A stretch of 46,660 nucleotides of DNA. It comes from Escherichia phage aalborv. The stretch lies in sequence record NC_049829.1, one strand, 5' to 3'. The position numbers and the translations under genes are program-made. Below are positions 7,880-43,928 of this stretch, piece by piece. The notes below the pieces were generated by a model that saw only the letters and a program-made list of their open reading frames with translations, was not told the origin of the DNA and did no database searches. Positions within the stretch are counted from its first letter, which is position 1; every line of letters starts with the position of its first letter.

Positions 7880-7921
7880 GCGGTGAATTATAACACCGCA
7901 TTTTTCATTTGTTTAGCTATT
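7880..7921 (-). promoter_or_regulatory. degenerate motif-type promoter (AAATAGCTAAA ... TATAAT)
   Basis: -10 TATAAT at 7886..7891 inside inverted repeat TGCGGTG..CACCGCA; partial motif at 7911..7921. Confidence 0.4.
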
Positions 7922-7929
7922 TGTGCTGT

Positions 7930-8991
7930 TTAAATAAGATATTGCTTAAACTGGCGTCGCACCCAATCAGGAGTATCAAGGCAAACCTCCGGCTCGCCGT
8001 TTGAATACGAAGGCCAAACGTCATGTTGCTGGCACATGGCAAACTGGTTAATTACGCTCATGTACTGAATGCGCCCGATCTTCAATTGCTCGCTGTTCAT
8101 GCGGAAAGCTAACGGCAAGTAAGGCTCTTTCTTCTCTTGCGCTAACAGGCGCACAACTATAGGTCGCTTTTCTTCTGGATACGCTTTCCTGAATAAATCA
8201 CATTGCAACGCCATTTTCAGATAATAGCCGTGATTGTAAGCCAGGCGCATAAACTCAACCGGATTAGCGATCATTGTTGTTTTGTAGTCAGTAATCACAA
8301 TCGCCTCTGGATAAATAATATCGCGGCAAATCGGTTGACCTTTTTCATCGTAACCATCAATCAGCGTTGCGGTGACGTTCTTTGTTACGTCAACGTGATC
8401 GCATCGCACTTTGACTTTTACGCCGTTGATTTCACCGAACAACGATAATTCACGTTGTGCTGTCTTGCTATTCATACATGCGTTATGTTCCGGTATTGAT
8501 TCCAGAACCTGGCGCATTGCAACGCACGAATCGTAATCTTTAGCTTCGATTAACTGAACCCCATCGGCCCTGGCCTGACTTTCTGCGATCATGTCGATTA
8601 ACCACATGACGTTAAGGTCTTCTCCGCAGTCGACCATCATTTTTATAAGTTCGGGGTAAGTCTTTCCGGTTGTACCTTTCAGGCCAAATGATTTCAGCTT
8701 TGCAGCAAGCGCCGTTTGGCTGGTTATCAGATCCTTAAAGTCTTCTGGCGCTGGCGCACGGCGATAGTTTTTTTCGAAAAGCTCCTTGCTTTCAAAGTTG
8801 GTATGCGACTGCGTACCAAAAACTAGCGCCTTGCTCTTGTCGTCACGCGGCTTGAACTTCCACGCTGCCGGGCATGTGCTGTAAATCTCCGCCAGGCTTG
8901 AACCGCTAACATAATCAGCCGTCCACGCTTCTGGATCGTGATAAAGCTCGTTGCTCATTTCTTCGCTGGTGTACGCCATAAACTTATTCAT
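7930..8991 (-). CDS. PD-(D/E)XK exonuclease (RecE/YqaJ-like) partner of ERF
   Basis: 353 aa; D-x-K-containing segment IVITDYKT; synteny with ERF and SSB; GAGGG SD; sigma70-like promoter 9015..9048. Confidence 0.55.
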   Translation of the reverse strand: MNKFMAYTSEEMSNELYHDPEAWTADYVSGSSLAEIYSTCPAAWKFKPRDDKSKALVFGTQSHTNFESKELFEKNYRRAPAPEDFKDLITSQTALAAKLKSFGLKGTTGKTYPELIKMMVDCGEDLNVMWLIDMIAESQARADGVQLIEAKDYDSCVAMRQVLESIPEHNACMNSKTAQRELSLFGEINGVKVKVRCDHVDVTKNVTATLIDGYDEKGQPICRDIIYPEAIVITDYKTTMIANPVEFMRLAYNHGYYLKMALQCDLFRKAYPEEKRPIVVRLLAQEKKEPYLPLAFRMNSEQLKIGRIQYMSVINQFAMCQQHDVWPSYSNGEPEVCLDTPDWVRRQFKQYLI

Positions 8992-9415: not shown

Positions 9416-9465
9416 AATAGCACTTTTTGCTAAACGCCTGCTGTAAGATCGTGTATAGTTGCAAC
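9416..9465 (+). promoter_or_regulatory. motif-type promoter (variant AATAGCACTTTTTGCTAAA) for Cor-like gene
   Basis: Motif 9416..9435; -10 TATAGT 9454..9459 after 21-bp spacer. Confidence 0.5.
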
Positions 9466-9490
9466 CAACAACAACGAAGGAGATACCAAG

Positions 9491-9718
9491 ATGAAAAAAT
9501 TAATCGCCGTTTTGATTGCAGCCGTAACCCTGACTGGTTGCGCAAATATGCCTAAACGTGAATGCACGGCTATTTATGAAAATAGCGGTATGCAGTATTC
9601 AGTTGCTATTTTTGGAGTAAAACGAGTTGGCGACCGCACTCTTGTTAAGGCTGGCTATCCGTTTAATTTTCAGTGGGTAAGTATTGATAACTTTAAAAAC
9701 GCTGATTGCAGTCTGTAA
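9491..9718 (+). CDS. small outer-membrane lipoprotein, Cor-like superinfection exclusion candidate
   Basis: 75 aa; signal peptide plus lipobox LTGC; only plus-strand gene between the exonuclease and tail modules; promoter 9416..9465; terminator 9725..9750. Confidence 0.5.
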   Translation: MKKLIAVLIAAVTLTGCANMPKRECTAIYENSGMQYSVAIFGVKRVGDRTLVKAGYPFNFQWVSIDNFKNADCSL

Positions 9719-32315: not shown

Positions 32316-32366
32316 GAGGACACTTTAACAAATGCCCTCGCGGAAGTTTTAACAAAAAATGCTGTT
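32316..32366 (-). promoter_or_regulatory. motif-type promoter (variant AACAGCATTTTTTGTTAAAA), -10 TAAAGT
   Basis: Motif 32347..32366; 22-bp spacer; -10 32322..32327. Confidence 0.45.
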
Positions 32367-32652
32367 AGCTCATGTAATAGATTTCATCGCGAACAAAATC
32401 GTCAAAATCAGATTGCGTCAATGGTCGATCCTCTAGTGCTGCCTGCTCAATCATTTCTACAAGGGCGCAATCCATATCAAGGTAATGAGCATCAAAATCA
32501 TACCATGAAGCCATTTCACGCGCCCATGAGCGGCAATTCTTGAATCCGTAACGTCTGATACAGTTTGCTGTATGAAATGAGTCATTCCAACCACGCTCAA
32601 GCGCTGCCTTTTCGAATGCGTTAATCAACATTTTGCGATAGCTTTTAGCCAT
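32365..32652 (-). CDS. hypothetical protein (95 aa)
   Basis: ORF track; AAGGAGG SD; stop TAA abuts promoter motif. Confidence 0.5.
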   Translation of the reverse strand: MAKSYRKMLINAFEKAALERGWNDSFHTANCIRRYGFKNCRSWAREMASWYDFDAHYLDMDCALVEMIEQAALEDRPLTQSDFDDFVRDEIYYMS

Positions 32653-32694
32653 TTGTTTCCTCCTTTTGGCGCCACCTAAGCGGCGCGGTTAACA

Positions 32695-32874
32695 TTACTT
32701 CTTTTTTCCGGTCAGCATGTATCGCTTACCGTCTTTGAATCCGTCACCATAGCCAGCATATCCGCCAGCCATGAAGATAATCAATCCGCCGATTGACTCA
32801 ACAATGCCGCTATATCCATAAGCCAGGTAGCAACCAGCGATAAGGGCAATAAAAATGATAATTACTCTTTTCAT
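32695..32874 (-). CDS. small membrane protein / possible lipoprotein (59 aa)
   Basis: Start at ATG 32874 (MKRVIIIFIALIAGCY), lipobox-like LIAGC; ATGA overlap with upstream interrupted frame. Confidence 0.45.
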   Translation of the reverse strand: MKRVIIIFIALIAGCYLAYGYSGIVESIGGLIIFMAGGYAGYGDGFKDGKRYMLTGKKK

Positions 32875-33233
32875 ACGTGATCCCATACATCGCACTTTTT
32901 GACAACCAGCAAACGCAGCTTGTAAGGTCGGAACTTGTGCAACTTTTTAGCGTACTCACGCGCTTCACTGTAGCTATTGAACTCCATAGCCCAAAAACCG
33001 AAAGCATCATCCGTCAGATATTCCCAATCGCCACTGATAACGCGGCGGCGTTGCAGGTAATAAATCTTGCATTCTGTGCAAGCAACGATCCGGTATTAAG
33101 GTTTAAAGATTCGTTTTAATGCGTTAAAAACCATAGTGCGGCCCTCACTGAATAAATAACTAAGAGAATCAAGAATAACACAATCATGATTTCATAAAAA
33201 TCAAACGGTGGCTTAGGATTGGTTGCGTTGTTG

Positions 33234-33638
33234 TTATTTCCCAGCATTTCGCGCAATCCCCTTGTACATGCCGTAAAGAACATTATCAGGCTTTTTGAAC
33301 TTGATCGCATTGCGCGCAAGTCGGCGCATACGTCGCGCATCGTATCGCGCTCGCTGAAATGGCATTTTCATTGTCTTAACATGGCAGCCGCGATGATCGC
33401 TGATTCGCTTAAGCTCAATCAAAACGCCTTGAGTTGCCTCTACGCAATAATGATCAAAGCCAAGTCGTCTAGTAATGATATAGCCATTCTTGATGCGTGG
33501 TCGGTTAAACTCTTTTAACGATCCGATATAGCGATCGGAAGCCGTTACAATCTCACCTTTACGAATGCCGCATCGCTCATCATATACCCAGGTTACAACA
33601 AATTTTGTGCCTACGCGGATTTTGTGAAGATCTAACAT
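33234..33638 (-). CDS. hypothetical basic protein (134 aa)
   Basis: Start moved to ATG 33638 (MLDLHKIRVG, AAAGGA SD) because track N-terminus lies upstream of promoter -10 (33669..33674). Confidence 0.5.
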   Translation of the reverse strand: MLDLHKIRVGTKFVVTWVYDERCGIRKGEIVTASDRYIGSLKEFNRPRIKNGYIITRRLGFDHYCVEATQGVLIELKRISDHRGCHVKTMKMPFQRARYDARRMRRLARNAIKFKKPDNVLYGMYKGIARNAGK

Positions 33639-33662
33639 GTTCAAGTCCTTTCGTTGATTGGT

Positions 33663-33714
33663 GTTTGCATTATAGCGAGGCATTGCGCCCCGCTTTTAGC
33701 AATTCGTGCTATTT
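33663..33714 (-). promoter_or_regulatory. motif-type promoter variant (AAATAGCACGAATTGCTAAAA), -10 TATAAT
   Basis: TTGCTA then 22-bp GC-rich inverted-repeat spacer then TATAAT (33669..33674). Confidence 0.5.
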
Positions 33715-34517: not shown

Positions 34518-34568
34518 AGGCCTACTATACAGCAGGCCCGATAATCTGTTTTTGCAAAAAGTGCTATT
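34518..34568 (-). promoter_or_regulatory. motif-type promoter (variant AATAGCACTTTTTGCAAAAA), -10 TATAGT
   Basis: Motif 34549..34568; -10 at 34524..34529. Confidence 0.5.
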
Positions 34569-35362: not shown

Positions 35363-35580
35363 TATTTCACTTCCTCAAATTCAGCAATTACCATAGCGTG
35401 TGCCATAACCTTAGTGCCTTCACCGCCGTTCAGGAACATGCGATGCCCCTTACTATTGCTCACATAAAAAGATCCGGTTGATGATTTCAACTTTTGCGCC
35501 ATATAGATTTCGCCAGGCTTGAACATGCCAGCGCAACCATAGTTAACGGAAATGCATTTCATCTTCTTGTTAATGTACAT
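35362..35580 (-). CDS. hypothetical protein (72 aa)
   Basis: Start moved to ATG 35580 because track TTG start lies inside promoter motif 35636..35655. Confidence 0.45.
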   Translation of the reverse strand: MYINKKMKCISVNYGCAGMFKPGEIYMAQKLKSSTGSFYVSNSKGHRMFLNGGEGTKVMAHAMVIAEFEEVK

Positions 35581-35604
35581 CGTTTTATCTTCTTCATTGA
35601 AAGT

Positions 35605-35655
35605 GAGGCCATTATACCTGGCCCCACATTTGAGTTTTAACAAAAAGTGCTATTT
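35605..35655 (-). promoter_or_regulatory. motif-type promoter, -10 TATAAT in loop of GGCC..GGCC inverted repeat
   Basis: Motif 35636..35655; -10 35611..35616. Confidence 0.55.
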
Positions 35656-35854: not shown

Positions 35855-36040
35855 TTAAAAGAAAGCTACATAGTTTGCAATGCCTTTGGCGTCGTCGTTT
35901 GGCATTGCTTTTACAGCCAGGTCATAACCTTCCTCTACCTTCTGCTTTGCTGTTTCTTCGTTGTAACCCCAGATAACCAGGATTTTAACTACGTTTTCTT
36001 TGTTCAGGATTTTAAGGTCTTTGGTGATGCGACGTGCCAT
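35855..36040 (-). CDS. hypothetical protein (61 aa)
   Basis: ORF track; GAGGAAAA SD within conserved 5'UTR (CATCGAAACGA) of promoter module 36067..36117. Confidence 0.5.
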   Translation of the reverse strand: MARRITKDLKILNKENVVKILVIWGYNEETAKQKVEEGYDLAVKAMPNDDAKGIANYVAFF

Positions 36041-36066
36041 TTTGTTTTCCTCAATCTCGTTTCGAT

Positions 36067-36117
36067 GAGGCTATTATGCCAGGCTTTTACACCTGGCTTT
36101 TAACAAAAAGTGCTATT
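36067..36117 (-). promoter_or_regulatory. motif-type promoter module, exact inverted copy of module 40786..40836
   Basis: Motif 36098..36117; spacer hairpin GCCAGG..CCTGGC; -10 CATAAT 36073..36078; conserved leader CATCGAAACGA. Confidence 0.55.
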
Positions 36118-36118
36118 T
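36073..36118. repeat. 46-bp exact inverted repeat of promoter module (partner 40785..40830)
   Basis: Reverse complement of 40785..40830 matches 36073..36118 base for base. Confidence 0.85.
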
Positions 36119-36379
36119 AATATCTGTTGTGACTTGCTGGTGCATTACGCTCTTTCCGCTGTTGTGCGTGCTATTCGTTGCGCCTTTGCAATTGGTGTAA
36201 TAGATCGCGCGACCGTTATCATAGAATCTGTATGCTGTGCATCCATCAACAGTGAACAGGCGACCGACTTTGAAATCTGACTCCACGCCTACGACAACCG
36301 TTGATTCCGATGCCTTTCGCATCCGGTCAGGGTAGCGATTGCAATCAAAACTCCAATTAATGCCTTGTTCATTATTCAT
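36113..36379 (-). CDS. hypothetical protein (88 aa)
   Basis: ORF track; stop TAG inside promoter motif 36098..36117. Confidence 0.5.
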   Translation of the reverse strand: MNNEQGINWSFDCNRYPDRMRKASESTVVVGVESDFKVGRLFTVDGCTAYRFYDNGRAIYYTNCKGATNSTHNSGKSVMHQQVTTDIK

Positions 36380-36842
36380 CCTCCATCTTTACCATCTCGT
36401 TAAGCATTTCATTCATTCGCTCAAGTGCGATTGCCGCACCTTCCAGGCGCTCGCCTTCAAGATCGCTGATTCGCGGCTGTGTTTTAAGCAGTTGAGCAAT
36501 AAACTTTGCTCGCCACTTGATTTCAAGTTTCGCTATATCATCTCCAGTCAGAACACGCGGTTTGCTTTTGGATTCTGTGAGCGCAAACACGAAACCATCA
36601 CCTTCATCAGTCACCTTGCGCTTAATGCTGATCACGCCTTTTTGCTTCACTTCAGGTACGCGGTTGACAACCTGGCGCATGTACGATGCCGTAATTGCTT
36701 CGCCGTTCTCCACATTAGCGCACAAAAAAAGTGCTGGCATGAATACATTATTACGCTCACCACTACCAATTGCCGCGCCCAAGTCGCGAAGCATATCGCA
36801 GAACTCACTACGCGACATATAACTAATATTTTCTTCATTCAT
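36372..36842 (-). CDS. hypothetical protein (156 aa), first gene of leftward operon
   Basis: Start set to ATG 36842 (MNEENISYM, AAGGAG SD); sigma70-like TTGACA-17-AATAAT promoter 36873..36907. Confidence 0.5.
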   Translation of the reverse strand: MNEENISYMSRSEFCDMLRDLGAAIGSGERNNVFMPALFLCANVENGEAITASYMRQVVNRVPEVKQKGVISIKRKVTDEGDGFVFALTESKSKPRVLTGDDIAKLEIKWRAKFIAQLLKTQPRISDLEGERLEGAAIALERMNEMLNEMVKMEDE

Positions 36843-36872
36843 GGCGTCTGCTCCTTTTGTTGCGTTTAAACT

Positions 36873-36907
36873 GGATGCATTATTTCCTTGCCTTTCCTGC
36901 ATGTCAA
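36873..36907 (-). promoter_or_regulatory. sigma70-like promoter TTGACA-17-AATAAT for leftward operon
   Basis: -35 at 36902..36907, -10 at 36879..36884 (minus strand); 30-nt leader with AAGGAG SD. Confidence 0.5.
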
Positions 36908-37185
36908 TATATTTTGTGTTTTAATAACAATTTTTGGCATGTGGCGCGTTTAAAGATAACAAAATGCACTACTTAAGTTATTGGTTTAACAGATAAAAGC
37001 GACCCTGTTGACCTGGTTGACGGAGTATTGCCGCTACCCCATATATATACATACAAAAATCACCACACATCACCATTGATTAAAAAATATACAATCACAC
37101 ATACATATCACCACAAACAATACCACTCCACCACATACCCATAGAACAAGCTCAACAGTAAATAACAAATATAAATACATATATA

Positions 37186-37201
37186 ACTAACTTATTGATT
37201 T
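37186..37201. repeat. 16-mer ACTAACTTATTGATTT (copy B)
   Basis: Identical to 9289..9304. Confidence 0.8.
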
Positions 37202-37442
37202 TATGGGTATATATATAAATTTTATTTTGTTCTTTTTGTTGATGAACGCCGTTTCTGTTATCTAAAAGTGCGGAGGCTTATTTGAGATAACATGGGGAAC
37301 AGAAATAACAGATGAGCGCGCCAGGATTGCCGGAAAGGACGCAAGAGGACCGCGTTTCTCTATCCCCTCCACACAAAAAGTTAATCATCTGATTAAAATT
37401 GATCAAACTCAATATCTCACAATCCAGGTGATCGCGAATGAG

Positions 37443-37482
37443 TTATTCCTGTTATTCCTGATTAATGGAATAGATGGAATAA
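37443..37482. promoter_or_regulatory. dyad of repeated half-sites TTATTCC(x2)...GGAATA(x2), candidate operator upstream of first rightward promoter
   Basis: TTATTCC at 37443 and 37452; GGAATA at 37467 and 37476; 14 bp upstream of motif 37496. Confidence 0.45.
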
Positions 37483-37495
37483 TGACCAGTCAGCA

Positions 37496-37546
37496 AATAG
37501 CACTTTTTGTTAAAACTGAATCCGCCTGATCGGGTACATTACACAC
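37496..37546 (+). promoter_or_regulatory. motif-type promoter module, first of the rightward early array
   Basis: Motif 37496..37515; -10 TACATT 37535..37540; leader CATCGAAAAGAA. Confidence 0.55.
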
Positions 37547-37575
37547 ATCGAAAAGAACCGATCAGGAGATAGCAA

Positions 37576-37848
37576 ATGAACATCAGCAAAACCACTTTCA
37601 ACTTCGCTAAGCGTCACGGTCTGGATCTGACTGTTGAAGATTTTGGCGATGTTCTGCAACTCTGCATTTGGGAAGCAGATAACGATTGCGAGTGGCTTTG
37701 CTCTTATCGTATCAACTACGATTGCTTGACCTGGCACGGCAATATCTATCTGCCGCAAGAAGTGAAAGAGGAATTGCCAGAAACCATCAACAACGAAGTT
37801 TTTTTGCGCAAAGTCATGAAGTTTATTGCCGAGGAGATCAAGAAATGA
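37576..37848 (+). CDS. hypothetical early protein (90 aa)
   Basis: ORF track; first gene after promoter module 37496..37546; AGGAGA SD. Confidence 0.5.
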   Translation: MNISKTTFNFAKRHGLDLTVEDFGDVLQLCIWEADNDCEWLCSYRINYDCLTWHGNIYLPQEVKEELPETINNEVFLRKVMKFIAEEIKK

Positions 37849-38084
37849 TTAATGAAGTGGATTTTGAACTCGCTGAGGCCCAGGTAAGGGCCAAAAAGAT
37901 GGGATTGCGGATCTTGACGCAAAAAGTCGAGTTCCCGTCGATGCCGTTCGCATCATTCCATAAAGTGACTGTGTTCAGTAGCAAACGCGAGTTTAACGCG
38001 CTAATCCCTGATGGTGATGATAAGCGCATGGCGAAATTTATTAACGAATCCTGTGATGTTCTGGATGCCGTTAAACATGGTTAA
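37845..38084 (+). CDS. hypothetical early protein (79 aa)
   Basis: Start ATG 37845 overlaps upstream stop (ATGA). Confidence 0.5.
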   Translation: MINEVDFELAEAQVRAKKMGLRILTQKVEFPSMPFASFHKVTVFSSKREFNALIPDGDDKRMAKFINESCDVLDAVKHG

Positions 38085-38103
38085 CAACAAAGGAGAAATA
38101 AAG

Positions 38104-38370
38104 ATGCCACGTATCAATGCACCTATTCCAGATAAGCGCAAAGCACGTTTGCTCAATAACGGGTGTTACGCCCTGCGGCCTGCATTTAAGGATCGCACCT
38201 TTCCGGTTATCGTTAACGTATCTCACGTAAGCCGTAGCGGGGATCTGGTATTTGTTAAAGGTGAGGATCTGTCGGCGCTTGGATTCTATGGCGGTATTTA
38301 CGGTGAGGCGCTAGGATTCTGGATTAAAGATCCGTTAACTGGCGAGCGCGAAATCGAATTCCTGGACTAA
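38104..38370 (+). CDS. hypothetical early protein (88 aa)
   Basis: AAAGGAG SD; stop TAA abuts promoter motif 38370..38389. Confidence 0.5.
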   Translation: MPRINAPIPDKRKARLLNNGCYALRPAFKDRTFPVIVNVSHVSRSGDLVFVKGEDLSALGFYGGIYGEALGFWIKDPLTGEREIEFLD

Positions 38371-38420
38371 ATAGCACTTTTTGTTAAAACTCAATCCTCG
38401 TATTCCTGTACATTACACAC
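38370..38420 (+). promoter_or_regulatory. motif-type promoter module
   Basis: Motif 38370..38389; -10 TACATT 38409..38414; leader CATCGATAACGAA...GAGGATTTGAAA. Confidence 0.55.
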
Positions 38421-38447
38421 ATCGATAACGAATGCGAGGATTTGAAA

Positions 38448-38600
38448 ATGGTTACTCTGATTACCTGGGAACACGAAAACAGCCAGCCGGAAGTGCGCGA
38501 ATTTGAAACTGTAGCCGCTTGTTACAACCTGGCGAAAAATGGCGGCTTCTACAAGGCGCAAATCGTTAACGAATTTGGAGTTGTTGACTATGAGTTCTAA
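38448..38600 (+). CDS. hypothetical small early protein (50 aa, MVTLITWEHENSQ...)
   Basis: Not in track; GAGGA SD in conserved 5'UTR of promoter module 38370..38420. Confidence 0.45.
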   Translation: MVTLITWEHENSQPEVREFETVAACYNLAKNGGFYKAQIVNEFGVVDYEF

Positions 38601-38871
38601 GTTTTACAGCTACACCGACACAGTGGATTTTGAGGGGATACAATTGCCCCTACCTAACAACTACAGGTACATAACTCGTGACCGTTTCGGCTTTATCCAG
38701 GGGTGGCGGAACAAACCAACACACACTGAGTTCGGTATGTCTGGAGGAGAAGAGTTGCCGATCACTTTTGGGCATCAAAGCGGTGAAAATCTTCCGGTTG
38801 TTGCGCGTAAGTATCGTAGACGAAAGATCACAAGACGGCTTATCTCTTTAACTGGATCTGTTGTTGAATAG
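38590..38871 (+). CDS. hypothetical early protein with basic C-terminus (93 aa)
   Basis: Start ATG 38590 (MSSKFYS, GGAG SD) overlapping previous ORF end; stop TAG inside promoter motif. Confidence 0.5.
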   Translation: MSSKFYSYTDTVDFEGIQLPLPNNYRYITRDRFGFIQGWRNKPTHTEFGMSGGEELPITFGHQSGENLPVVARKYRRRKITRRLISLTGSVVE

Positions 38872-38917
38872 CACTTTTTGTTAAAACCGATGCGCCTCTG
38901 ATTGGTATATTAATCGC
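38867..38917 (+). promoter_or_regulatory. motif-type promoter module
   Basis: Motif 38867..38886; -10 TATATT 38906..38911; leader CATCGACAACGAA...GAGGATTTAAAA. Confidence 0.55.
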
Positions 38918-38942
38918 ATCGACAACGAACGAGGATTTAAAA

Positions 38943-39140
38943 ATGGAAAATCAAGTTGATGTTAAAGTTGTACAGCGTGACAAGTCTCACGAAAAAGGTT
39001 TGTTTAAGAAAGGTGCTGAAATCACCATTGACCTTGATGATATGGAGGCGTACCACTCAGGGCTAACTTGGAACGTGCGCAAATGTGAAAACGGCCTGTT
39101 CAAGTTAAATGGCTTTGAAACATACATGGAGATCATTTAA
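38943..39140 (+). CDS. hypothetical early protein (65 aa)
   Basis: ORF track; GAGGATTTAAAA-ATG conserved leader. Confidence 0.5.
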   Translation: MENQVDVKVVQRDKSHEKGLFKKGAEITIDLDDMEAYHSGLTWNVRKCENGLFKLNGFETYMEII

Positions 39141-39460
39141 TGGCAAAGCAATTAAAACTTAAGTGCGTAGAAACTTATAACTCAATTTGGAAATTTACGC
39201 GCGGAAAAGAATATCCACTAATGTGAAATCTCAAAGAAGATCCTCATGTAATTTCAGATAATGGTCTTCACCTTTATTTGATGGAATACAACGATGGCTA
39301 TATTGGCGCTGGTGTTCCAGGTCATAAATTTAAGATGAAAAATAAGAAATGAGGCTATTTATTTTCAAAAATGCCCGGATGGTAGCGGTTGCAAATGACC
39401 ATTACGGAGGCGACGGAAAAAGAGCGCCACGTCATTCATATTTCAATTGAGGATATTTAA

Positions 39461-39688
39461 ATGAAAGCAAAAGTTTTAAACATTATGGCAACTATTGACG
39501 CTCATCACCGCGTGGCTGTAAAACTTGATAAGTCCTGCGGAATTAGCCAAATCACTATCACCGAGGGCAAAGGCGGCTATCTTATTGGTAGCCATCCAGG
39601 CGGTAAGGTGCGCAAATACAATAAAGATCAGGTAAAAGAATTACTGGAAGAAAACGCTTTCTATATTCAAAGTTGGCGCGCTCTTTAA
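39461..39688 (+). CDS. hypothetical early protein (75 aa)
   Basis: ORF track; GAGGATATTTAA-ATG leader; followed by terminator 39696..39718. Confidence 0.5.
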   Translation: MKAKVLNIMATIDAHHRVAVKLDKSCGISQITITEGKGGYLIGSHPGGKVRKYNKDQVKELLEENAFYIQSWRAL

Positions 39689-39695
39689 TTAATCT

Positions 39696-39718
39696 GGCGG
39701 CGTTTTGCCGCCTTTTAA
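39696..39718 (+). terminator. intrinsic terminator after 39461..39688
   Basis: Stem GGCGGC..GCCGCC followed by TTTT. Confidence 0.55.
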
Positions 39719-39730
39719 ATGAGGTGGAAA

Positions 39731-39847
39731 ATGATAGATAAAGCTATTGATTTCTTTTTTTATTCTATTATTGGCGCGGTTGGTTTTTTGGTTACTGCTG
39801 CTGGTCTGGCTATTATCTTGGCTGTTATTAAGGGGATTATGCGATGA
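39731..39847 (+). CDS. small hydrophobic membrane peptide (38 aa, MIDKAIDFFFYSIIGAVGFLVTAAGLAIILAVIKGIMR)
   Basis: Not in track; GAGGTGG SD 5 nt upstream; single predicted TM helix. Confidence 0.4.
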   Translation: MIDKAIDFFFYSIIGAVGFLVTAAGLAIILAVIKGIMR

Positions 39848-39877
39848 GTCAAGACGGTTTTTTTTGAGCGCCTTCAA

Positions 39878-40069
39878 ATGGCAGAAGATGCCGGACTAAA
39901 TAAAGAGTCGGCGCTTGAAGTGGCATATAAAATTAAGACTCTTGATGAGGCTTTAGGTGATATGGATATGGATCTTGAATCAAGCGCAATATTTGCAGAT
40001 CCCACTATGATTGTTAATGATTGTGGATGCGATTTCGATCCTGGTTGTGCGCGCTGTTTTCCGTTTTGA
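39878..40069 (+). CDS. hypothetical acidic Cys-containing protein (63 aa)
   Basis: ORF track; weak SD. Confidence 0.4.
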   Translation: MAEDAGLNKESALEVAYKIKTLDEALGDMDMDLESSAIFADPTMIVNDCGCDFDPGCARCFPF

Positions 40070-40079
40070 GGTAATGACG

Positions 40080-40790
40080 ATGTATAAAGGTTTAATATTC
40101 TCCCTATTTGATGGATCTGGTAAAGCCGTTAAAGATTGGGCTGATAATGGCTATAAGTGCATTTGCTTTAATGCTGACGGCGGCGATCACGGTGATTACC
40201 AGTCAGTGCGCATACAGCATGAGAATATCGAATATGTTAACGTCTGGATTGATGAAAGATTTTACCACCGCGCGCGCTGGGAGGAATGGGGCATTCCTGA
40301 CTTTATTATGGCATTTCCGCCATGCACTGACCTTGCAAATAGCGGATCTCGCCATTGGGCTAAAAAACGCATTGAGAATCCATCGTTCCAGGATGAAGCC
40401 GCCGACACTTGCAAAATAGCTGCGCAAATTGCTGATTATTTCGGTGTTCCGTACATGATAGAGAATCCTGTAGGCAAGCTGTCAACGCTATGGCGCAAGC
40501 CTGATTATACGTTCCATCCGTGCGATTATGCTGGCTATCTGCCGGAAGATGATAAACATCCCGACTTTCCTGATATTATTCCGGCACGGGATCGGTACTT
40601 TAAGAAAACATGCCTTTGGACTGGAAACGGATTTGTTATTCCTCCGCGCGCAACAATCATTCCTAAAGATGGCGACAAGGATAATCCTGGTTGGGCCAAA
40701 ACTGGCGGAAAATCGTCTCGCACAAAGATGATCCGCTCCCTCACACCGCGCGGTTTTGCTCGCGCCGTCTTTGAAGCAAACGCAAAATAG
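40080..40790 (+). CDS. putative compact DNA cytosine-C5 methyltransferase-like protein
   Basis: Start set to ATG 40080 (MYKG, GAGGT SD); FxGxG-like (LFDGSG), PC (FPPCTD) and ENx (MIENPVG) motifs in C5-MTase order; short for the family, so tentative. Confidence 0.4.
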   Translation: MYKGLIFSLFDGSGKAVKDWADNGYKCICFNADGGDHGDYQSVRIQHENIEYVNVWIDERFYHRARWEEWGIPDFIMAFPPCTDLANSGSRHWAKKRIENPSFQDEAADTCKIAAQIADYFGVPYMIENPVGKLSTLWRKPDYTFHPCDYAGYLPEDDKHPDFPDIIPARDRYFKKTCLWTGNGFVIPPRATIIPKDGDKDNPGWAKTGGKSSRTKMIRSLTPRGFARAVFEANAK

Positions 40791-40830
40791 CACTTTTTGT
40801 TAAAAGCCAGGTGTAAAAGCCTGGCATAAT
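40785..40830. repeat. 46-bp exact inverted repeat of promoter module (partner 36073..36118)
   Basis: See partner entry. Confidence 0.85.
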
Positions 40831-40836
40831 CACTTC
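40786..40836 (+). promoter_or_regulatory. motif-type promoter module
   Basis: Motif 40786..40805; spacer hairpin GCCAGG..CCTGGC; -10 CATAAT 40825..40830. Confidence 0.55.
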
Positions 40837-40861
40837 ACCGAAACGAAAGGAGAAATAAACG

Positions 40862-41248
40862 ATGAAAGTTATCTGCAATAAAACCAACGTTTTGATGAAC
40901 GGTCGCTATAAAACCGTATACGAAAAAATCGCTGGTAGCGATGATGTGATCGAGTTGGAACAATTCCAGGTAAAGAGCATTACAAAGGGTAGTAAGTGGC
41001 AAAACGCTGTTGAGTCTGACTATCGTCACATCAAGACAAAAACAATTAAATGCACATTTGTAGATCACAAGATCCCGTGCAAAAAGCATTTCAAAGAAGG
41101 AAAGCGTTACCAGATTGAGCAAGGACGCGCGCTTGGCGCTGTTGCTGGTTATGTGTTTGATGAGTCTGGCGACCGCTGGACGCTATACCGCGAAGAAGTT
41201 GGATTTTCCGCTGGTGGCTGTCATTTGTTTGAGGCTATGTATAAGTGA
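40862..41248 (+). CDS. hypothetical early protein (128 aa)
   Basis: ORF track; AAGGAGAAA SD after promoter module 40786..40836. Confidence 0.5.
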   Translation: MKVICNKTNVLMNGRYKTVYEKIAGSDDVIELEQFQVKSITKGSKWQNAVESDYRHIKTKTIKCTFVDHKIPCKKHFKEGKRYQIEQGRALGAVAGYVFDESGDRWTLYREEVGFSAGGCHLFEAMYK

Positions 41249-41466
41249 TCAAGGCTGAATATCGCTATAAGGTGACTCATTCAGCAACAAAAACCTTCAA
41301 TCCTGGCGATATAGTCAGGCCAATAAAGAAAACGATGGTTGGGTGGCTGACTGGATTCTCATATCACAAATCACTTTACTTTGATTTTGTTGATTCTGTA
41401 ACCGCGCATTGCCATAGTGCAAAGGAACCAGAAAAAATCTTAGTTAGCATAGAGCGGATCAAATAG
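41245..41466 (+). CDS. hypothetical early protein (73 aa), GTG start
   Basis: GTG at 41245 overlaps upstream stop (GTGA); stop TAG inside promoter motif. Confidence 0.45.
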   Translation: MIKAEYRYKVTHSATKTFNPGDIVRPIKKTMVGWLTGFSYHKSLYFDFVDSVTAHCHSAKEPEKILVSIERIK

Positions 41467-41512
41467 CATTTTTTGTTAAATGCGGGTAGCATTGGTGCGG
41501 TATTATTGCCGC
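41462..41512 (+). promoter_or_regulatory. motif-type promoter module (variant AATAGCATTTTTTGTTAAA)
   Basis: TTGTTA 41473..41478; 22-bp spacer; -10 TATTAT 41501..41506. Confidence 0.5.
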
Positions 41513-41534
41513 ATCAAAAAAGGAGTTATCATCA

Positions 41535-43118
41535 ATGAATTTTTCGTTTGAAACCAATAAACTAACACCAAAACAAATTATCGAATTAGCTGATGCACAA
41601 GGATTGTCTCCGGTGCGCGTGTCCATTCAGGCAAACGGATACCGTCAATCGTCCAGCTTTTGGGGTGAGGTTAATGATGTTAATAACGGAAACGATCGCT
41701 ACCCTATAATTTCTCTTGGCAATGATGTTGATGTTGTTGGTAAGTTGGCGCGCAACATTGCTCGATCAGTTCAGTTCCCTGAATCATCGGCATATATGCA
41801 TTTTATCGGCTGCGTGTCTGCTGCAATGCTTGGACGCTTCACGGTTGAGTATCACGGAACGGATCAACCAACTGCTCTTTACGTTGTTACAAGTCAGCCT
41901 CCTTCAACTGGTAAATCTGCCGTTAACAGCCTTGCACTTGCTCCTATGGTTGCTGAGGTAGAAAGAATTAATGATCAGCGAAAGAAGGAACGAAAAAAGA
42001 TTCAGGCAAAGTTGGCAGGTCTTGCAAAGGAAATGAAAAGCGAGCGTTCCGGCGCTGATATGGAATCGCTATACCAGGAGAAAGAAGATCTGGAAGAAAA
42101 ACTGGAAAAGATGTGTGACATTGTTTTCCCTGTCTCCGACACCACGCCGGAAGGACTTGCAAGAATCAACAACCGCCAGGGAAACTTTGCTGTAATTTCA
42201 GACGAGGCAACGAGTATTAACAGCCTTTTAGGTCTGACATATGCCAATAGCGAACGTAAAACCAACAGCGAACTTGTGCTAAAAGCATGGGATCATGGTC
42301 ATGTTTCTATAGCTCGTGCAAACGCTGACAACAATATGAGTTTTAAAGCTCTTGGCTGCATGGCGGTAATTGCCCAGGATGAAACAATCAATGCCATCAT
42401 GGACGCAGGATCACGCGGTATCGGTGTAAGTGAGCGTTATTTGCTTGTGCGTGAGGAATCATTTTTAGGTCGTCGAAAGTTTGTTGATGATAACGGTGAT
42501 TCGACTTATGAGCCTGTTGATGGAGAACTGAAAAGCCAATATTTTAAGCTGATCCATAACATAATGAGCGAATCAAACATCCAGCTTAAGATCAGCAAAT
42601 CAGCAATGCGAGTGCTTAACATGGCTCGTCAGGAGATGGAACCGCACCTTGCCGATGGCGGAAAGTATTCTCATACAATGCTGCGCGGCGCGCTTGGCAA
42701 AATGGATAAGCAGGTGATCAGAATTGCTTCGGTTTTGCACACTATCCGCAATTGGTTTAATCCTGGCGGATACCCTCAAAAGTCGAAAGAGATTGAGGTT
42801 GAAACCGTTCAGGAAGCACTGCTGATGTTTAGCGAGTTGAGCAAAACATACATTAGCGCCGCCAACGCTTCTGGCTATGCTGGTGATGATGCTGAAATGG
42901 GTAAACTAATCGAGATTATCACTCGACACGGTAAGGCTAACAAGGGAATCTTGAATGTGCGAGCCATATATGAGGCTGCGCGAAAAGTTAAGCCTTTTGT
43001 TGGTCAGGCTGGCGTAATGAAGCGCATGGAAACGCAACTGCTGCCGATGCTTGAAGAAAGAAATTATATTTGTGTGATTAATGGCGTTGTTTTTGTAAAT
43101 CCAACATTGCTGGGGTAA
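41535..43118 (+). CDS. P-loop NTPase domain protein (527 aa), function unknown
   Basis: Walker A-like TSQPPSTGKSAV; AAGGAG SD; largest protein of the early block. Confidence 0.6.
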   Translation: MNFSFETNKLTPKQIIELADAQGLSPVRVSIQANGYRQSSSFWGEVNDVNNGNDRYPIISLGNDVDVVGKLARNIARSVQFPESSAYMHFIGCVSAAMLGRFTVEYHGTDQPTALYVVTSQPPSTGKSAVNSLALAPMVAEVERINDQRKKERKKIQAKLAGLAKEMKSERSGADMESLYQEKEDLEEKLEKMCDIVFPVSDTTPEGLARINNRQGNFAVISDEATSINSLLGLTYANSERKTNSELVLKAWDHGHVSIARANADNNMSFKALGCMAVIAQDETINAIMDAGSRGIGVSERYLLVREESFLGRRKFVDDNGDSTYEPVDGELKSQYFKLIHNIMSESNIQLKISKSAMRVLNMARQEMEPHLADGGKYSHTMLRGALGKMDKQVIRIASVLHTIRNWFNPGGYPQKSKEIEVETVQEALLMFSELSKTYISAANASGYAGDDAEMGKLIEIITRHGKANKGILNVRAIYEAARKVKPFVGQAGVMKRMETQLLPMLEERNYICVINGVVFVNPTLLG

Positions 43119-43120
43119 TT

Positions 43121-43513
43121 ATGTTTCTTCTGGATCTGTATCGCTGGTGTGAGTCATTCGAATGGTTTACACGTCAACATATAGCGAAATTTATATTTCA
43201 GCATAGAGAATGTGAGCGGCTCGCAAGGGCCGCAGGATTTACGCCGAGGATGTTTGCAACTGCCGTTTCAAAAGAATTTTGCTCAAGAATGATGACCGCT
43301 GGTTATCTTGATGGAGTTGGTGGAAAGTTCTGGTGTAAGAAAGGATCAGCAAATCGCCCTTTCTCGTTTGAACTTTACAGCCTGGAAGGTATGCAAAACG
43401 AATGGGTAAGAGATGTTTTACGGATCGGAGAAATGAGCGATGAAGAATTGTTTACGTCAAATGCTAATAGACAAAATATTGAAGTTCTGCGCCGTAAGTT
43501 CAATCTCACATGA
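43121..43513 (+). CDS. hypothetical early protein (130 aa)
   Basis: ORF track; GGGG SD. Confidence 0.5.
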   Translation: MFLLDLYRWCESFEWFTRQHIAKFIFQHRECERLARAAGFTPRMFATAVSKEFCSRMMTAGYLDGVGGKFWCKKGSANRPFSFELYSLEGMQNEWVRDVLRIGEMSDEELFTSNANRQNIEVLRRKFNLT

Positions 43514-43634
43514 CGACTTCATGCACGCAATGTTAACGCTCATTCATTCTGACATGCGAGCGTTTGATATATCAGAGCATAATTTGTGTGATGAGGACGG
43601 AGTTTTGTTGGTTACTGTAAAGCGTATTGAATAG
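43440..43634 (+). CDS. hypothetical protein (64 aa) overlapping previous gene out of frame
   Basis: GGAGAAA SD; stop TAG is the TAG of promoter motif 43630..43648; 74-nt overlap with 43121..43513. Confidence 0.35.
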   Translation: MKNCLRQMLIDKILKFCAVSSISHDDFMHAMLTLIHSDMRAFDISEHNLCDEDGVLLVTVKRIE

Positions 43635-43679
43635 CACTTTTGTTAAAACACCCGATCTCGTATCGGGTATATTTGTTTC
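43630..43679 (+). promoter_or_regulatory. motif-type promoter module
   Basis: Motif 43630..43648 (one T shorter); spacer hairpin CCCGAT..ATCGGG; -10 TATATT 43668..43673; leader CATCGAAACGAA. Confidence 0.55.
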
Positions 43680-43706
43680 ATCGAAACGAATATGAGGATT
43701 TTAAAA

Positions 43707-43928
43707 ATGGCTATCAAAGTAACAAAAAAAGAAACAAAAATCATCAATGTAACTTTTGATGTTTTCAACGACAAAGGAACTGCGACAAGAGAAGATGGTA
43801 GCACGTTTGAAATAAATCGTTACGAATACAATGAAATGTTATGGGATATAAAGAAGAAAGGTGCTTACATTCTTGTCGAGAATGATTATAGCGGAAACAG
43901 CTTTCAAGATTTGATGGATTCACTATAA
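43707..43928 (+). CDS. hypothetical early protein (73 aa)
   Basis: Start ATG 43707 with GAGGATTTTAAAA leader; terminator 43934..43960 follows. Confidence 0.5.
   Translation: MAIKVTKKETKIINVTFDVFNDKGTATREDGSTFEINRYEYNEMLWDIKKKGAYILVENDYSGNSFQDLMDSL

What the first reader, a model, noticed from the sequence alone, without database searches (positions are those of the whole stretch)
36067..43928. Array of repeated promoter / 5'UTR / RBS cassettes driving small early genes, including a 46-bp exact inverted duplication
Six modules (36067..36117 on the minus strand; 37496, 38370, 38867, 40786, 43630 on the plus strand) share the motif, the -10 and a conserved initial transcribed sequence CA(T/C)CGA(A/C/T)AACGA. 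Four of the five plus-strand modules are followed by GAGGATTT(A/G)AAA-ATG, while 40786 carries AAGGAGAAA instead. A 46-bp segment is exactly duplicated in inverted orientation (36073..36118 versus 40785..40830). This looks like a modular system for acquiring or shuffling small accessory genes, which are candidates for host takeover or anti-defense functions. The conserved leader may be an RNA-level regulatory element.
Basis: seen in the sequence. Interest (0 to 1): 0.75.

Follow-up and report, generated by a model that had tools for sequence, protein, structure and literature searches.

The report
Repeated promoter cassettes of T1-like phage
These are the phage's standard promoter modules: a 20-base box, a stem-loop, a -10 element, a short leader and a ribosome site in front of most non-structural genes. 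The box was already noted in T1-like phages, and the repeated copies also act as recombination points where small accessory genes are lost, swapped or overwritten.

Summary
The box AATAGCACTTTTTGTTAAAA occurs about 17 times in the window (0.02 expected), and the 46-nt exact inverted repeat exists.

It is not special to 36-44 kb. The window is a T1-like phage (Drexlerviridae, Hanrivervirus-like), and the box is the 21-nt direct repeat already described for TLS, T1, Rtp and Rogue1, with its function left open.

Across about 500 unique copies the anatomy is fixed:
- the stop codon of the upstream gene lies in or at the box (84%);
- a 19-nt variable spacer usually forms a stem-loop;
- a -10 hexamer with G at -14 follows, with no -35;
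- then a CA start, a CAUCGAAACGAA-type leader, a ribosome site and ATG about 76 nt from the box start.

Published Bas11 escape mutants map, by my reading, to the -10 and to the box core. They lower expression in uninfected E. coli, so host polymerase suffices.

Close relatives show exact box-to-box cassette deletions and gene replacements just after the leader. The 46-nt repeat is a gene-conversion tract; pSf-1 carries the reverse conversion.

Against other gene boundaries the enrichment of rearrangements at boxes is modest. I read this as ordinary promoters that recombine, much like T4 PeSLs, not as a dedicated shuffling system. The leader shows no sign of being an RNA regulator.

The parts
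36038..36117 (-). Module A. Box 36098-36117, spacer stem-loop GCCAGG/CCTGGC, -10 CATAAT 36073-36078, predicted start about 36066, ATG 36040. Drives the DUF7421 gene 35855-36040.
   Evidence: (z -5.5)
37496..37578 (+). Module. Box 37496-37515, -10 TACATT 37535-37540, start about 37547, ATG 37576. It is the first module of the plus-strand array. Spacer CCTGATCGG pairs with CCGATCAGG at the RBS.
38370..38450 (+). Module. Box 38370-38389, -10 TACATT 38409-38414, start about 38421, ATG 38448. The whole 497-bp cassette up to 38866 is absent from four relatives.
38867..38945 (+). Module. Box 38867-38886, -10 TATATT 38906-38911, start about 38918, ATG 38943. Drives the Gp54-family gene 38943-39140.
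   Evidence: orthologous Bas11 promoter
40786..40864 (+). Module B. Box 40786-40805, the same stem-loop as module A, -10 CATAAT 40825-40830, start about 40837, ATG 40862. The TAG inside the box is the stop codon of the methyltransferase gene.
41462..41537 (+). Box AATAGCATTTTTTGTTAAAT, stem-loop GCGG/CCGC enclosing -10 TATTAT 41501-41506, ATG 41535 of the DUF3987-type helicase gene.
43630..43709 (+). Module with a 19-nt box (one T missing). Stem-loop ACCCGAT/ATCGGGT, -10 TATATT 43668-43673, ATG 43707. The cassette 43637-43928 is absent from three relatives. The gene after the leader (43691-43924) is replaced in three others.
35578..35654 (-). Hybrid module marking a box-to-box deletion. Relatives carry two modules here flanking a roughly 0.9-kb gene. 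The window keeps the upstream flank and TTT-type box of one module, and the spacer, -10 and gene of the other.
   Evidence: event 1
36057..36118 (-). Left arm of the inverted repeat (46 nt exact, 62 nt at 94%). This is the gene-conversion tract in which module A acquired the spacer of module B.
40785..40846 (+). Right arm of the inverted repeat; the donor type of the conversion.
34549..34568 (-). Box AATAGCACTTTTTGCAAAAA with -10 TATAGT 34524-34529. The downstream gene appears decayed in the window.
32347..33713 (-). Two further sense modules of the minus-strand small-gene array: boxes 32347-32366 and 33694-33713 (GAA-type box).
216..3779 (-). Sense modules in front of replication and modification genes. 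Boxes 216-235, 1236-1255 (Dam-like methylase) and 3760-3779 (ST22-type helicase).
9416..9493 (+). Module in front of the cor-like gene (ATG 9491).
6871..8982 (-). Phage recombination genes: Erf-like annealing protein 6871-7545 and RecE-like exonuclease 7945-8982. These are the likely machinery for recombination between boxes; that link is inferred.
   Evidence: 51% and 62% identity to T1 ST28 / ST29

Best explanation
The six modules are copies of the standard transcription-unit boundary of T1-like phages (Drexlerviridae). Read 5' to 3', each module holds these parts:
1. The stop codon of the upstream gene, which usually lies inside the box.
2. A nearly invariant 20-nt box, ATAGCAC-N3-TTG-N-TAAAA, at about -51 to -32.
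3. A variable 19-nt spacer that usually forms a GC-rich stem-loop.
4. A -10 hexamer with G at -14 and no usable -35.
5. A CA start site, a short A-rich unstructured leader (CAUCGAAACGAA), a ribosome-binding site and ATG about 76 nt from the box start.

How it works:
- Unmodified host sigma-70 RNA polymerase fires these promoters, and the box acts as a positive upstream element. This is shown for one orthologous module in the literature and inferred for the rest.
- The stem-loop belongs to the RNA that reads through from the upstream gene. It could be a 3'-end hairpin or a weak attenuator; its exact role is inferred.
- The modules serve non-structural genes and are absent, in sense orientation, from the structural gene block.
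- Some 15 co-oriented copies share 20-60 nt of identity, so general homologous recombination between them deletes, replaces or converts cassettes. The phage encodes RecE-like and Erf-like proteins that could do this.
- The 46-nt exact inverted repeat is such a conversion tract between modules A (36117-) and B (40786+).
- Recombination is a by-product of promoter repetition, not a dedicated cassette-capture system.
For: Identity of the element:
- The window is 91-93% identical to Hanrivervirus phages.
- The same box occurs in T1. It is the 21-nt direct repeat aaATAGCACnnnTTGnTAAAA reported for TLS, T1, Rtp and Rogue1. The Stevie GenBank record annotates it as repeat_region.

Promoter anatomy, in 497-508 unique copies from 132 loci:
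- The best -10-like hexamer starts at position 40 in 86% and at 39-41 in 97%.
- G at -14 in 85%; TG in 43%.
- CA at 51-52 in 69%.
- RBS, start codon and ORF in 92%, with the start most often 75-79 nt from the box start.

Function:
- The 38867 module drives a Gp54-family gene.
- In Bas11, the cloned 'native promoter' of gene 54 starts at box position 3.
- It expresses Gp54-FLAG in uninfected MG1655, and the escape-derived '-37' and '-71' mutations lower that expression.
- In the Bas11 sequence, -37 is the A of -10 TATCAT and -71 is A7 of ATAGCAC.

Stem-loop:
- 231 non-redundant modules have mean z -2.19, against 0.02 for random 64-mers (P 8e-44).
- Modules with an upstream co-directional ORF have z -3.28; those without have -1.10 (P 2.5e-9).
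- Compensatory changes occur in several ortholog groups.

Stop codons: 403 of 479 upstream ORFs end in or at the box.

Recombination:
- Three junctions have the crossover inside the box. There is one cassette indel and one replacement immediately after the leader.
- 11 of 31 breakpoints fall in modules that cover 7% of the region (P 5e-6).
- The conversion tract in the window and the reverse one in pSf-1 are each 46 nt exact, against 20-21 nt in eight other relatives.
- RecE-like and Erf-like genes are present.
Against: - No transcript 5' or 3' ends are available for this phage or any T1-like phage I could find.
- What reads the box is unknown. It is out of register for a -35 (TTG sits 22 bp from the -10) and matches the UP-element consensus only through its T-tract.
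- The mapping of '-37' and '-71' rests on plasmid names counted from the ATG. The mutated bases themselves are in a figure I could not read.
- Most stem-loops lack a U-tract in the sense direction (20 of 181 have at least 5 T in 8 nt), so they are not canonical terminators.
- Against a gene-boundary null the breakpoint enrichment is modest (P 0.026).
- A family-scale junction test shows little excess mosaicism at boxes: 22% and 21% against 17% and 12%, with equal partner numbers in large clusters.
- Conserved boxes also anchor BLAST alignments, which inflates the number of 'breakpoints at boxes'.
Confidence: 0.75

Rival explanations
1. The box is the binding site of a phage-encoded regulator, for example the Cro/YdaS-like HTH protein at 3792-4220 (homologue of T1 ST23). 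On this view the modules are factor-dependent 'middle' promoters, analogous to T4 MotA-box promoters, or operator or stoperator sites that shut early genes off.
For: - The box is asymmetric, orientation-locked, nearly invariant, and sits where an activator replacing the -35 would bind.
- A conserved HTH regulator exists.
- The regulator's own sigma-70-like promoter (3713-3740) overlaps face-to-face with the -10 of the box promoter at 3779(-). The box lies in the regulator's 5'UTR, in this window and in T1.
- The TLS authors raised the stoperator and enhancer-site ideas.
Against: - The Bas11 module works, and depends on its box core, in uninfected E. coli. A phage activator is therefore not required.
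- No binding data exist.
- A modulatory role on top of basal activity, such as late shut-off, is not excluded.
Confidence: 0.12
2. The modules form a dedicated gene-cassette exchange system, integron-like or PeSL mini-circle-like, in which the box is a recombination site selected for capturing and shuffling accessory genes.
For: - Crossovers lie inside the box in three cassette deletions, and one cassette indel is bounded by the box.
- 84% of upstream ORFs end in the box, so any junction preserves reading frames.
- Homologues of T1 ST4 and ST71 sit in the opposite gene array in this phage.
- Many BLAST matches to the Bas10 gp57 module region begin exactly at the box.
Against: - No integrase or other site-specific recombinase appears among the T1-homologous genes.
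- Exchange points also fall in the leader and elsewhere, and conversion tracts span the whole module. That is the signature of general homologous recombination.
- Box junctions are barely more mosaic than other gene junctions at family scale.
- Homing-endonuclease insertions and other breakpoints ignore the boxes.
Confidence: 0.08
3. The conserved box plus stem-loop is mainly a transcript 3'-end or terminator element, possibly bidirectional. The apparent promoter features would then be secondary.
For: - The T1 GenBank record annotates two of these stem-loops as rho-independent terminators.
- The A-tract, GC-rich stem and AT-rich tail resemble a bidirectional terminator, and 101 of 181 have at least 4 U after the stem on the antisense strand.
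- Stem-loops track the presence of an upstream co-directional gene.
Against: - The fixed-distance -10, G-14, CA start, RBS and ATG in about 90% of copies make sense only for a promoter.
- Modules without stem-loops keep the box and the -10.
- Sense-strand U-tracts are mostly absent.
- Box and -10 mutations lower expression of the downstream gene.
Confidence: 0.05

Closest known systems
21-nt direct repeat of T1-like phages (TLS 'DR', aaATAGCACnnnTTGnTAAAA; also T1, Rtp, Rogue1; 'repeat_region' in the Citrobacter phage Stevie record)
   Same: It is the same element. The consensus is the same, it has the same orientation with transcription, it lies about 76 nt upstream of start codons, it has the same TTT / GAA / AAA sub-types, and it occurs in the same phage family.
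   Different: The published description stops at the box and leaves its function open (stoperator, enhancer site or UP element). It does not report the fixed -10 with G-14, the start site and leader, the spacer stem-loop, the in-box stop codons or the recombination junctions.
PeSLs (promoter-early stem-loops) of T4-like phages (Arbiol 2010; Comeau 2014)
   Same: Both are small composite promoter plus stem-loop plus RBS cassettes, repeated between small non-essential genes. Both are scarce in structural blocks, and both sit at indels and replacements between close relatives (versus 25, 55).
   Different: - PeSLs have near-consensus -35/-10 promoters, with the stem-loop upstream of the promoter acting as an effective terminator.
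- Here the -35 is replaced by a family-specific box, and the stem-loop sits inside the promoter (between box and -10, or around the -10).
- Most stem-loops here lack a U-tract.
- The box also supplies the stop codon of the upstream gene.
- The phage family is different. Mini-circles were not tested.
Extended -10 promoters and UP-element-boosted phage promoters (T5, T4 early)
   Same: A -10 with G at -14 (TG in 43%) and no functional -35, an upstream AT-containing element that increases activity, and use of unmodified host polymerase.
   Different: The ATAGCAC core is not AT-rich and is far more conserved than UP elements. Only the T5 tract (-43 to -39) lines up with the proximal UP sub-site.
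T4 middle promoters (MotA box replacing the -35)
   Same: A sigma-70 -10 element plus a phage-specific upstream box in place of the -35.
   Different: T4 middle promoters need the phage proteins MotA and AsiA. The Bas11 module is active in uninfected cells.
Morons of lambdoid phages, and start-associated sequences / stoperators of mycobacteriophages
   Same: Self-contained promoter-gene units inserted between genes, and short oriented family-specific repeats at gene starts.
   Different: Morons do not share one common promoter box. Stoperators are repressor sites of temperate phages, whereas these phages are virulent and the box acts positively.

Membership tests
T1-like 21-nt direct repeat (TLS DR) | Consensus aaATAGCACnnnTTGnTAAAA | tested here: met
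   15 matches at up to 3 mismatches, plus 2 variants. The consensus is quoted.
T1-like 21-nt direct repeat (TLS DR) | Lies between genes, in the direction of transcription | tested here: met
   15 of 17 copies are co-oriented with the downstream gene. Two (20084+, 23845+) are antisense within the structural block.
T1-like 21-nt direct repeat (TLS DR) | About 76 nt upstream of the start codon | tested here: met
   The start codon lies 74-81 nt after the box start in the window modules. The most common distance is 75-79 nt in 497 copies.
T1-like 21-nt direct repeat (TLS DR) | Host genome is a T1-like (Drexlerviridae) phage | tested here: met
   91-93% identity to Hanrivervirus genomes and synteny with T1. 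All IMG/VR contigs with the box are 41-53 kb.
PeSL (T4-like phages) | Sigma-70-like promoter with both -35 and -10 at about N17 | tested here: not met
   The -10 is present at a fixed distance, but there is no -35. TTG lies 22 bp from the -10, and only 1 of the modules passes a consensus scan.
PeSL (T4-like phages) | Stem-loop just upstream of the promoter that terminates transcription | tested here: inconclusive
   The stem-loop is significant, but it lies between box and -10 or around the -10. Only 20 of 181 have at least 5 T in the 8 nt after the stem. Termination itself cannot be tested here.
PeSL (T4-like phages) | RBS and start codon at the 3' end of the element | tested here: met
   92% of 497 copies; window modules.
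PeSL (T4-like phages) | Concentrated among small variable genes, rare in structural gene blocks | tested here: met
   There is no sense-oriented box in the structural block at 10.7-30.2 kb. There are eleven in the two small-gene arrays at 30-44 kb.
PeSL (T4-like phages) | Indels and replacements between close relatives occur at the elements | tested here: met
   Events 1-5 and gene conversion. Enrichment over other gene boundaries is modest.
PeSL (T4-like phages) | Formation of circular cassette DNAs between neighbouring elements | not testable with these tools
   Needs outward PCR or read-level data from lysates.
Extended -10 promoter | TGn immediately upstream of the -10 hexamer | tested here: inconclusive
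   G at -14 in 85%, but the full TG in only 43% of 497 copies. In the window TG is present at 36117, 38370, 38867 and 40786.
UP element | AT-rich consensus nnAAAWWTWTTTTnnnAAAnnn at -59 to -38 | tested here: inconclusive
   By inspection, with the geometry, the box spans -51 to -32. Only its T5 tract (-43 to -39) coincides with the proximal sub-site, and ATAGCAC does not fit.
T4-type activator-dependent (MotA-box) promoter | Requires a phage-encoded activator or co-activator | not testable with these tools
   The literature argues against it. The Bas11 module drives expression in uninfected MG1655 and is weakened by a box-core mutation.
Integron-like cassette system | Site-specific recombinase acting at a defined crossover point in the repeat | tested here: not met
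   No recombinase appears among the genes mapped by T1 homology. Crossovers occur in the box, in the leader and as whole-module conversion tracts.

The most novel reading that the evidence does not exclude
The ATAGCAC-N3-TTG-N-TAAAA box is a previously uncharacterised upstream promoter element, read by the unmodified E. coli transcription machinery or by an unknown host factor. It is neither a -35 nor a canonical UP element. Combined with the stop codon built into the box and a stem-loop tied to read-through, it makes every small gene a self-insulated, frame-safe expression cassette. Ordinary RecE/Erf-type recombination can then delete, swap or overwrite these cassettes. That would amount to an integrase-free cassette platform through which T1-like phages turn over accessory genes, including immune triggers such as Gp54.
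Probability: 0.3. Interest if true: 0.6.

Novelty: new member of a known kind. Interest (0 to 1): 0.4.

Why it matters
T1-like phages are model and therapy-candidate phages and are well represented in the BASEL collection, yet their promoters have never been defined. Published annotations find only a handful of sigma-70 sites and leave the 21-nt repeat unexplained.

- Reading the repeat as the upstream half of a fixed promoter module gives a near-complete map of non-structural transcription units for the family.
- It explains why spontaneous mutations at -37 and -71 let Bas11 escape CapRel.
- It predicts that defence-triggering accessory genes can be lost in one step by box-to-box deletion.
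- It shows that PeSL-type promoter-mediated mosaicism is not confined to T4-like phages.

Tried and rejected
- **Anti-RBS pairing as a general rule.** The spacers of 37496 and 38370 pair with their own RBS (9 and 15 bp). Across 231 modules, spacer-to-leader complementarity equals the shuffled control. Rejected as a general rule.
- **Leader as a known RNA element.** Rfam finds nothing in 33-46.6 kb except a chance sRNA hit elsewhere.
- **Simple sigma-70 consensus scan.** It recovers only one module (35640), and the number of hits does not exceed the shuffles. That is consistent with the missing -35.
- **Family-scale test of boxes as recombination hot spots.** The result was weak, so I do not claim a hot spot beyond close relatives.
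- **Consensus folding of ortholog groups.** Several groups gave no common structure because the spacer in front of the same gene differs between phages. Others show compensatory pairs.
- **Dcm (CCWGG) sites in spacers.** Enriched about 2.8-fold, but present in only 13% of modules. Not a defining feature.
- **Candidate host-factor sites (Fis, IHF, CRP, DnaA).** Compared with the box by eye; none fits.
- **Literature.** Exact-sequence searches found only the TLS paper. The 2004 T1 genome paper is not held. No T1-family transcriptome was found.
- **Pfam and PHROG searches of 20 cassette proteins.** All are of unknown function except the Gp54 family, some DUFs and the HTH regulator.

Full report

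Yes. AATAGCACTTTTTGTTAAAA matches 15 times in the window at up to 3 mismatches, against 0.02 expected from dinucleotide shuffles. A fuzzy search adds the copy at 43630, which lacks one T, and a GAA-type variant at 33713.

The inverted duplication is exact for 46 nt (36073-36118 / 40785-40830) and continues to 62 nt at 94%.

The description needs three corrections.
- Modules at 41462(+), 35654(-) and 34568(-) were overlooked.
- Only two plus-strand modules carry GAGGATTT(A/G)AAA-ATG exactly. 43630 has an extra T and 37496 reads CAGGAGATAGCAAATG.
- The motif is not local. It runs through the whole window, at 235-, 1255-, 3779-, 9416+, 20084+, 23845+, 32366- and 33713- as well.

**2. What is the genome, and is the motif known?**

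The region is 91-93% identical to Hanrivervirus phages such as herni, vB_Eco-B1.3, JakobBernoulli/Bas07 and pSf-1. It is syntenic with coliphage T1 in reverse orientation.

T1 itself carries the same box. An exact-match scan of IMG/VR returned 120 stretches, all from contigs of 41-53 kb.

The box is published. [quoted passage not shown] It notes the repeat in T1, Rtp and Rogue1 as well. It leaves the function open between stoperator, enhancer-binding site and UP element, and finds only three sigma-70-like promoters in the genome. The GenBank record of Citrobacter phage Stevie marks the boxes as repeat_region. No other paper in the searchable library mentions the sequence.

**3. Anatomy of the module**

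I collected every box from 132 related loci plus the window, about 500 unique copies, and stacked them without gaps. Counting from the first A of the box:
- The best -10-like hexamer starts at position 40 in 86% and at 39-41 in 97%.
- Position 38 (-14) is G in 85%, and the full TG occurs in 43%.
- Positions 51-52 are CA in 69%, which puts the A seven nt after the hexamer, where a start site belongs.
- The next ten bases lean towards tcgAAAcgAA.
- A ribosome site, start codon and ORF of at least 30 codons follow in 92%, most often 75-79 nt from the box start.

There is no -35. The TTG of the box lies 22 bp from the hexamer, and a plain consensus scan finds just one of the window's modules. With this geometry the box spans about -51 to -32.

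Upstream, 403 of 479 co-directional ORFs end in or at the box. Of these, 255 use the TAG at box positions 3-5, 63 use the TAA at 16-18, and 85 use a TAA or TGA overlapping the first A. In the window the methyltransferase gene, for example, stops at the TAG of box 40786.

**4. The stem-loop**

The 19-nt spacer is variable in sequence but not in behaviour.

For the 17 window modules, the stretch from box end to RBS folds at -13.6 kcal/mol on average, against -10.05 for random windows of this genome (P about 1e-4). Eleven of the 17 have z of -2.5 or lower.

For 231 non-redundant modules the mean z is -2.19, against 0.02 for random 64-mers (P 8e-44). In 226 of them the 5' arm lies in the spacer. 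The geometry varies:
- 86 have a local hairpin filling the space between box and hexamer.
- 107 have a hairpin whose loop holds the -10.
- 33 have longer-range pairings.

Some ortholog groups show compensatory changes; one has 5 of 7 pairs changed on both sides.

Two results constrain what the stem-loop is for.
- It tracks read-through. Modules with a co-directional ORF ending at the box have mean z -3.28 (71% below -2). Modules without one have -1.10 (24% below -2; P 2.5e-9). In the window, the four modules with no upstream co-directional gene (3779-, 9416+, 20084+, 23845+) are the ones without a hairpin.
- It is rarely a canonical terminator. Only 20 of 181 have at least 5 T in the 8 nt after the stem on the sense strand. 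The T1 record nevertheless labels two of them as terminators.

The 5' arm always lies upstream of the predicted start. The structure can therefore form only in RNA coming from the upstream gene. I take it to be a 3'-end hairpin or a weak attenuator for that RNA. This step is inferred.

**5. Is it a promoter, and who reads it?**

The first gene of the 38867 module (38943-39140) belongs to Pfam PF25180, 'phage antiviral trigger protein Gp54' (E 1e-38).

Zhang et al. (Nature 2024, PMC11578894) showed the following.
- Gp54 of phage Bas11 is non-essential and triggers the CapRelSJ46 defence.
- Gene 54 with its 'native promoter' was cloned in pBR322 and expressed Gp54-FLAG in uninfected MG1655.
- The mutant versions, listed as '-37 mut' and '-71 mut', gave less protein.
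- Their forward primer begins the phage insert at TAGCACTTTTTGTTAAAACCAG, which is position 3 of the box.

Bas11 is phage JohannLBurckhardt. In its sequence the ATG is at locus position 1277. Position -37 is then the A of the hexamer TATCAT, and -71 is A7 of ATAGCAC.

If the names count from the ATG, as I assume, selection in the laboratory hit exactly the two elements predicted from the alignment. Both matter without any phage protein. It argues against a MotA-like dependence on a phage activator.

What contacts ATAGCAC remains unknown. Only the T-tract at -43 to -39 coincides with the proximal UP sub-site.

**6. Which genes are served?**

Mapping T1 proteins onto the window puts sense-oriented modules in front of several groups of genes:
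- the Dam-like methylase;
- the ST22-type and DUF3987-type helicases;
- cor;
- the two divergent arrays of small genes (30-36.9 kb on the minus strand, 37.5-43.9 kb on the plus strand).

There are none in the structural block at 10.7-30.2 kb. 'Early or non-structural' is therefore a reasonable inference, but timing was not measured, and I found no transcriptome for the family.

**7. Do cassettes vary while modules stay?**

I compared the window with eleven relatives.
- **Event 1.** Relatives have two modules flanking a roughly 0.9-kb gene. The window has a single hybrid module at 35654(-). Its upstream flank and TTT-type box come from one module; its spacer, -10 and gene come from the other. 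The crossover lies within TTGTTAAAACT.
- **Event 2.** vB_Eco-B1.3 lacks 37552-38368, joined within the shared part of modules 37496 and 38370.
- **Event 3.** Four phages lack 38452-38866 and are joined in the box.
- **Event 4.** Three phages lack the whole cassette 43637-43928, from box to stop codon.
- **Event 5.** Three phages carry different genes immediately after the leader ...CATCGA(A/G)ACGAA of module 43630.

Divergent segments also begin or end at box edges (36097/8, 36118/9, 37493/4, 41462/3).

By my count, 11 of 31 distinct breakpoints fall in modules covering 7% of the region (binomial P 5e-6).

Three caveats keep this claim modest.
- Conserved boxes naturally anchor alignments.
- Measured against gene boundaries only (9 of about 30 carry a box), the enrichment is P 0.026.
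- A family-wide test of how many different partners each flank has gave 22% and 21% multi-partner clusters at box junctions, against 17% and 12% at box-less gene junctions. Partner numbers in large clusters were equal.

Homing-endonuclease insertions and several other breakpoints ignore the boxes.

**8. The 46-nt inverted repeat**

In eight relatives, module A (in front of the DUF7421 gene) and module B (in front of the phrog_2684 gene) share only the box (20-21 nt exact). Their spacers differ: CGCCAGGYGCRAAKCCTGG against GCCAGGTGTAAAAGCCTGG.

In the window, A carries the B-type spacer, which gives 46 exact nt. In pSf-1, B carries the A-type spacer, which again gives 46 exact nt.

These are two independent patches in opposite directions. 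Each is bounded by the box on one side and by CCTGGCATAAT on the other. That is the pattern expected from gene conversion between inverted paralogous promoters. The intervening 4.7 kb is not inverted relative to the other genomes.

The phage encodes RecE-like and Erf-like proteins. These could act on homologies this short, but that link is inferred.

**9. Comparison with what is known, and verdict**

As an element this is the T1-family direct repeat, and every defining feature is met.

As a mechanism it works like the PeSLs of T4-like phages: promoter plus stem-loop plus RBS cassettes that sit at indels in hyperplastic regions. It fails two PeSL criteria. It has no -35/-10 consensus promoter. 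Its stem-loop lies inside the promoter and mostly lacks a terminator tail.

It is not an integron-like system, and nothing requires a dedicated shuffling function.

The leader is short, A-rich and unstructured in the module's own transcript. The anti-RBS pairing seen at 37496 and 38370 does not generalise, and Rfam finds nothing.

The finding is real and biologically coherent, but it is largely an instance of known things. The parts that appear to be undescribed are the full module anatomy, the in-box stop codons, the link between the hairpin and read-through, the conversion events, and the connection to the Bas11 escape mutations.

Noticed in passing
window 20084-20175 (+) and 23845-23900 (+); T1 (L012) 18851(-) and 15087(-): Two boxes lie antisense inside the structural gene block, at the same two intergenic positions in T1 and in this phage: major tail / chaperone, and major capsid / ST48-like. 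The copy at 20084 has a -10-like TAGCAT and faces the strong terminator hairpin GGGGCGCAACGCCCC about 30 nt downstream. It could make a very short antisense RNA or serve some non-promoter role.
   Followed up: partly
window 3694-3795; T1 (L012) 36432-36524: The promoter-like site of the HTH regulator gene (TTGAGT-16-TATAAT, 3713-3740, plus strand) overlaps face-to-face with the -10 TATTAT of the box promoter of the helicase gene (box 3760-3779, minus strand). The box therefore lies in the regulator's 5'UTR. T1 has the same layout. This suggests mutually exclusive or coupled regulation.
   Followed up: partly
window 38943-39140 (+): The 65-aa product matches Pfam PF25180, 'phage antiviral trigger protein Gp54' (E 1e-38). 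This is the family whose Bas11 member activates the CapRelSJ46 defence. tblastn finds 213 phage records with homologues.
   Followed up: yes
window 39140-39352 (+): A 70-codon gene that is intact in vB_Eco-B1.3 has an in-frame TGA at codon 29 in the window (Gly in B1.3). It is a likely pseudogene or a sequencing error. Most other relatives carry an unrelated 282-nt gene here, annotated as a putative homing endonuclease in Bas07.
   Followed up: partly
window 36880-37495: A noncoding stretch of roughly 600 nt separates the two divergent small-gene arrays. It is AT-rich, with CACCAC / ATACA-type repeats. It corresponds to the genome-end / pac region of T1. A near-consensus sigma-70 site (TTGACA-17-AATAAT, 36907-36879, minus strand) sits in front of the DUF7174 gene 36372-36842.
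   Followed up: no
window 43630-43648: This box has four T instead of five (AATAGCACTTTTGTTAAAA), whereas all relatives examined have five. It is either a real 1-nt deletion that alters the spacing between ATAGCAC and TTG, or a homopolymer error.
   Followed up: no
window 31659-31775 (-) and 38137-38334 (+): Homologues of T1 ST4 and ST71 lie in the opposite small-gene array compared with T1. Small genes have therefore moved between the two divergent arrays since the lineages split.
   Followed up: no
window-wide; spacers of modules 35654, 36117, 40786: CCWGG (Dcm) sites are over-represented: 111 in the window against about 60 expected from base composition. They often sit directly in front of the -10 (CCTGGCATAAT, CCAGGTATAAT). 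65 of 513 modules have one in the spacer, against about 23 expected. The phage encodes a Dcm-like methyltransferase (40080-40790).
   Followed up: partly
L008 8701-9216; L009 6408-6921, 8585-9048 and 9427-9912 (window equivalents 43120, 41192-41462, 43488): Relatives carry HNH homing-endonuclease genes inserted around the DUF3987-type helicase gene, and the window lacks them. This second source of mosaicism is independent of the boxes.
   Followed up: no
window 4249-4320 (+): A degenerate box (AAAGCACTAATTGCTAAAAAC) follows the regulator gene. After it comes a long hairpin with a T-run (CCTGGCATGATGTTATCATCTGTCAGGCTTTTTTG), which is annotated as a terminator at the equivalent place in T1. Here the box accompanies a genuine terminator in front of the primase gene.
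   Followed up: no
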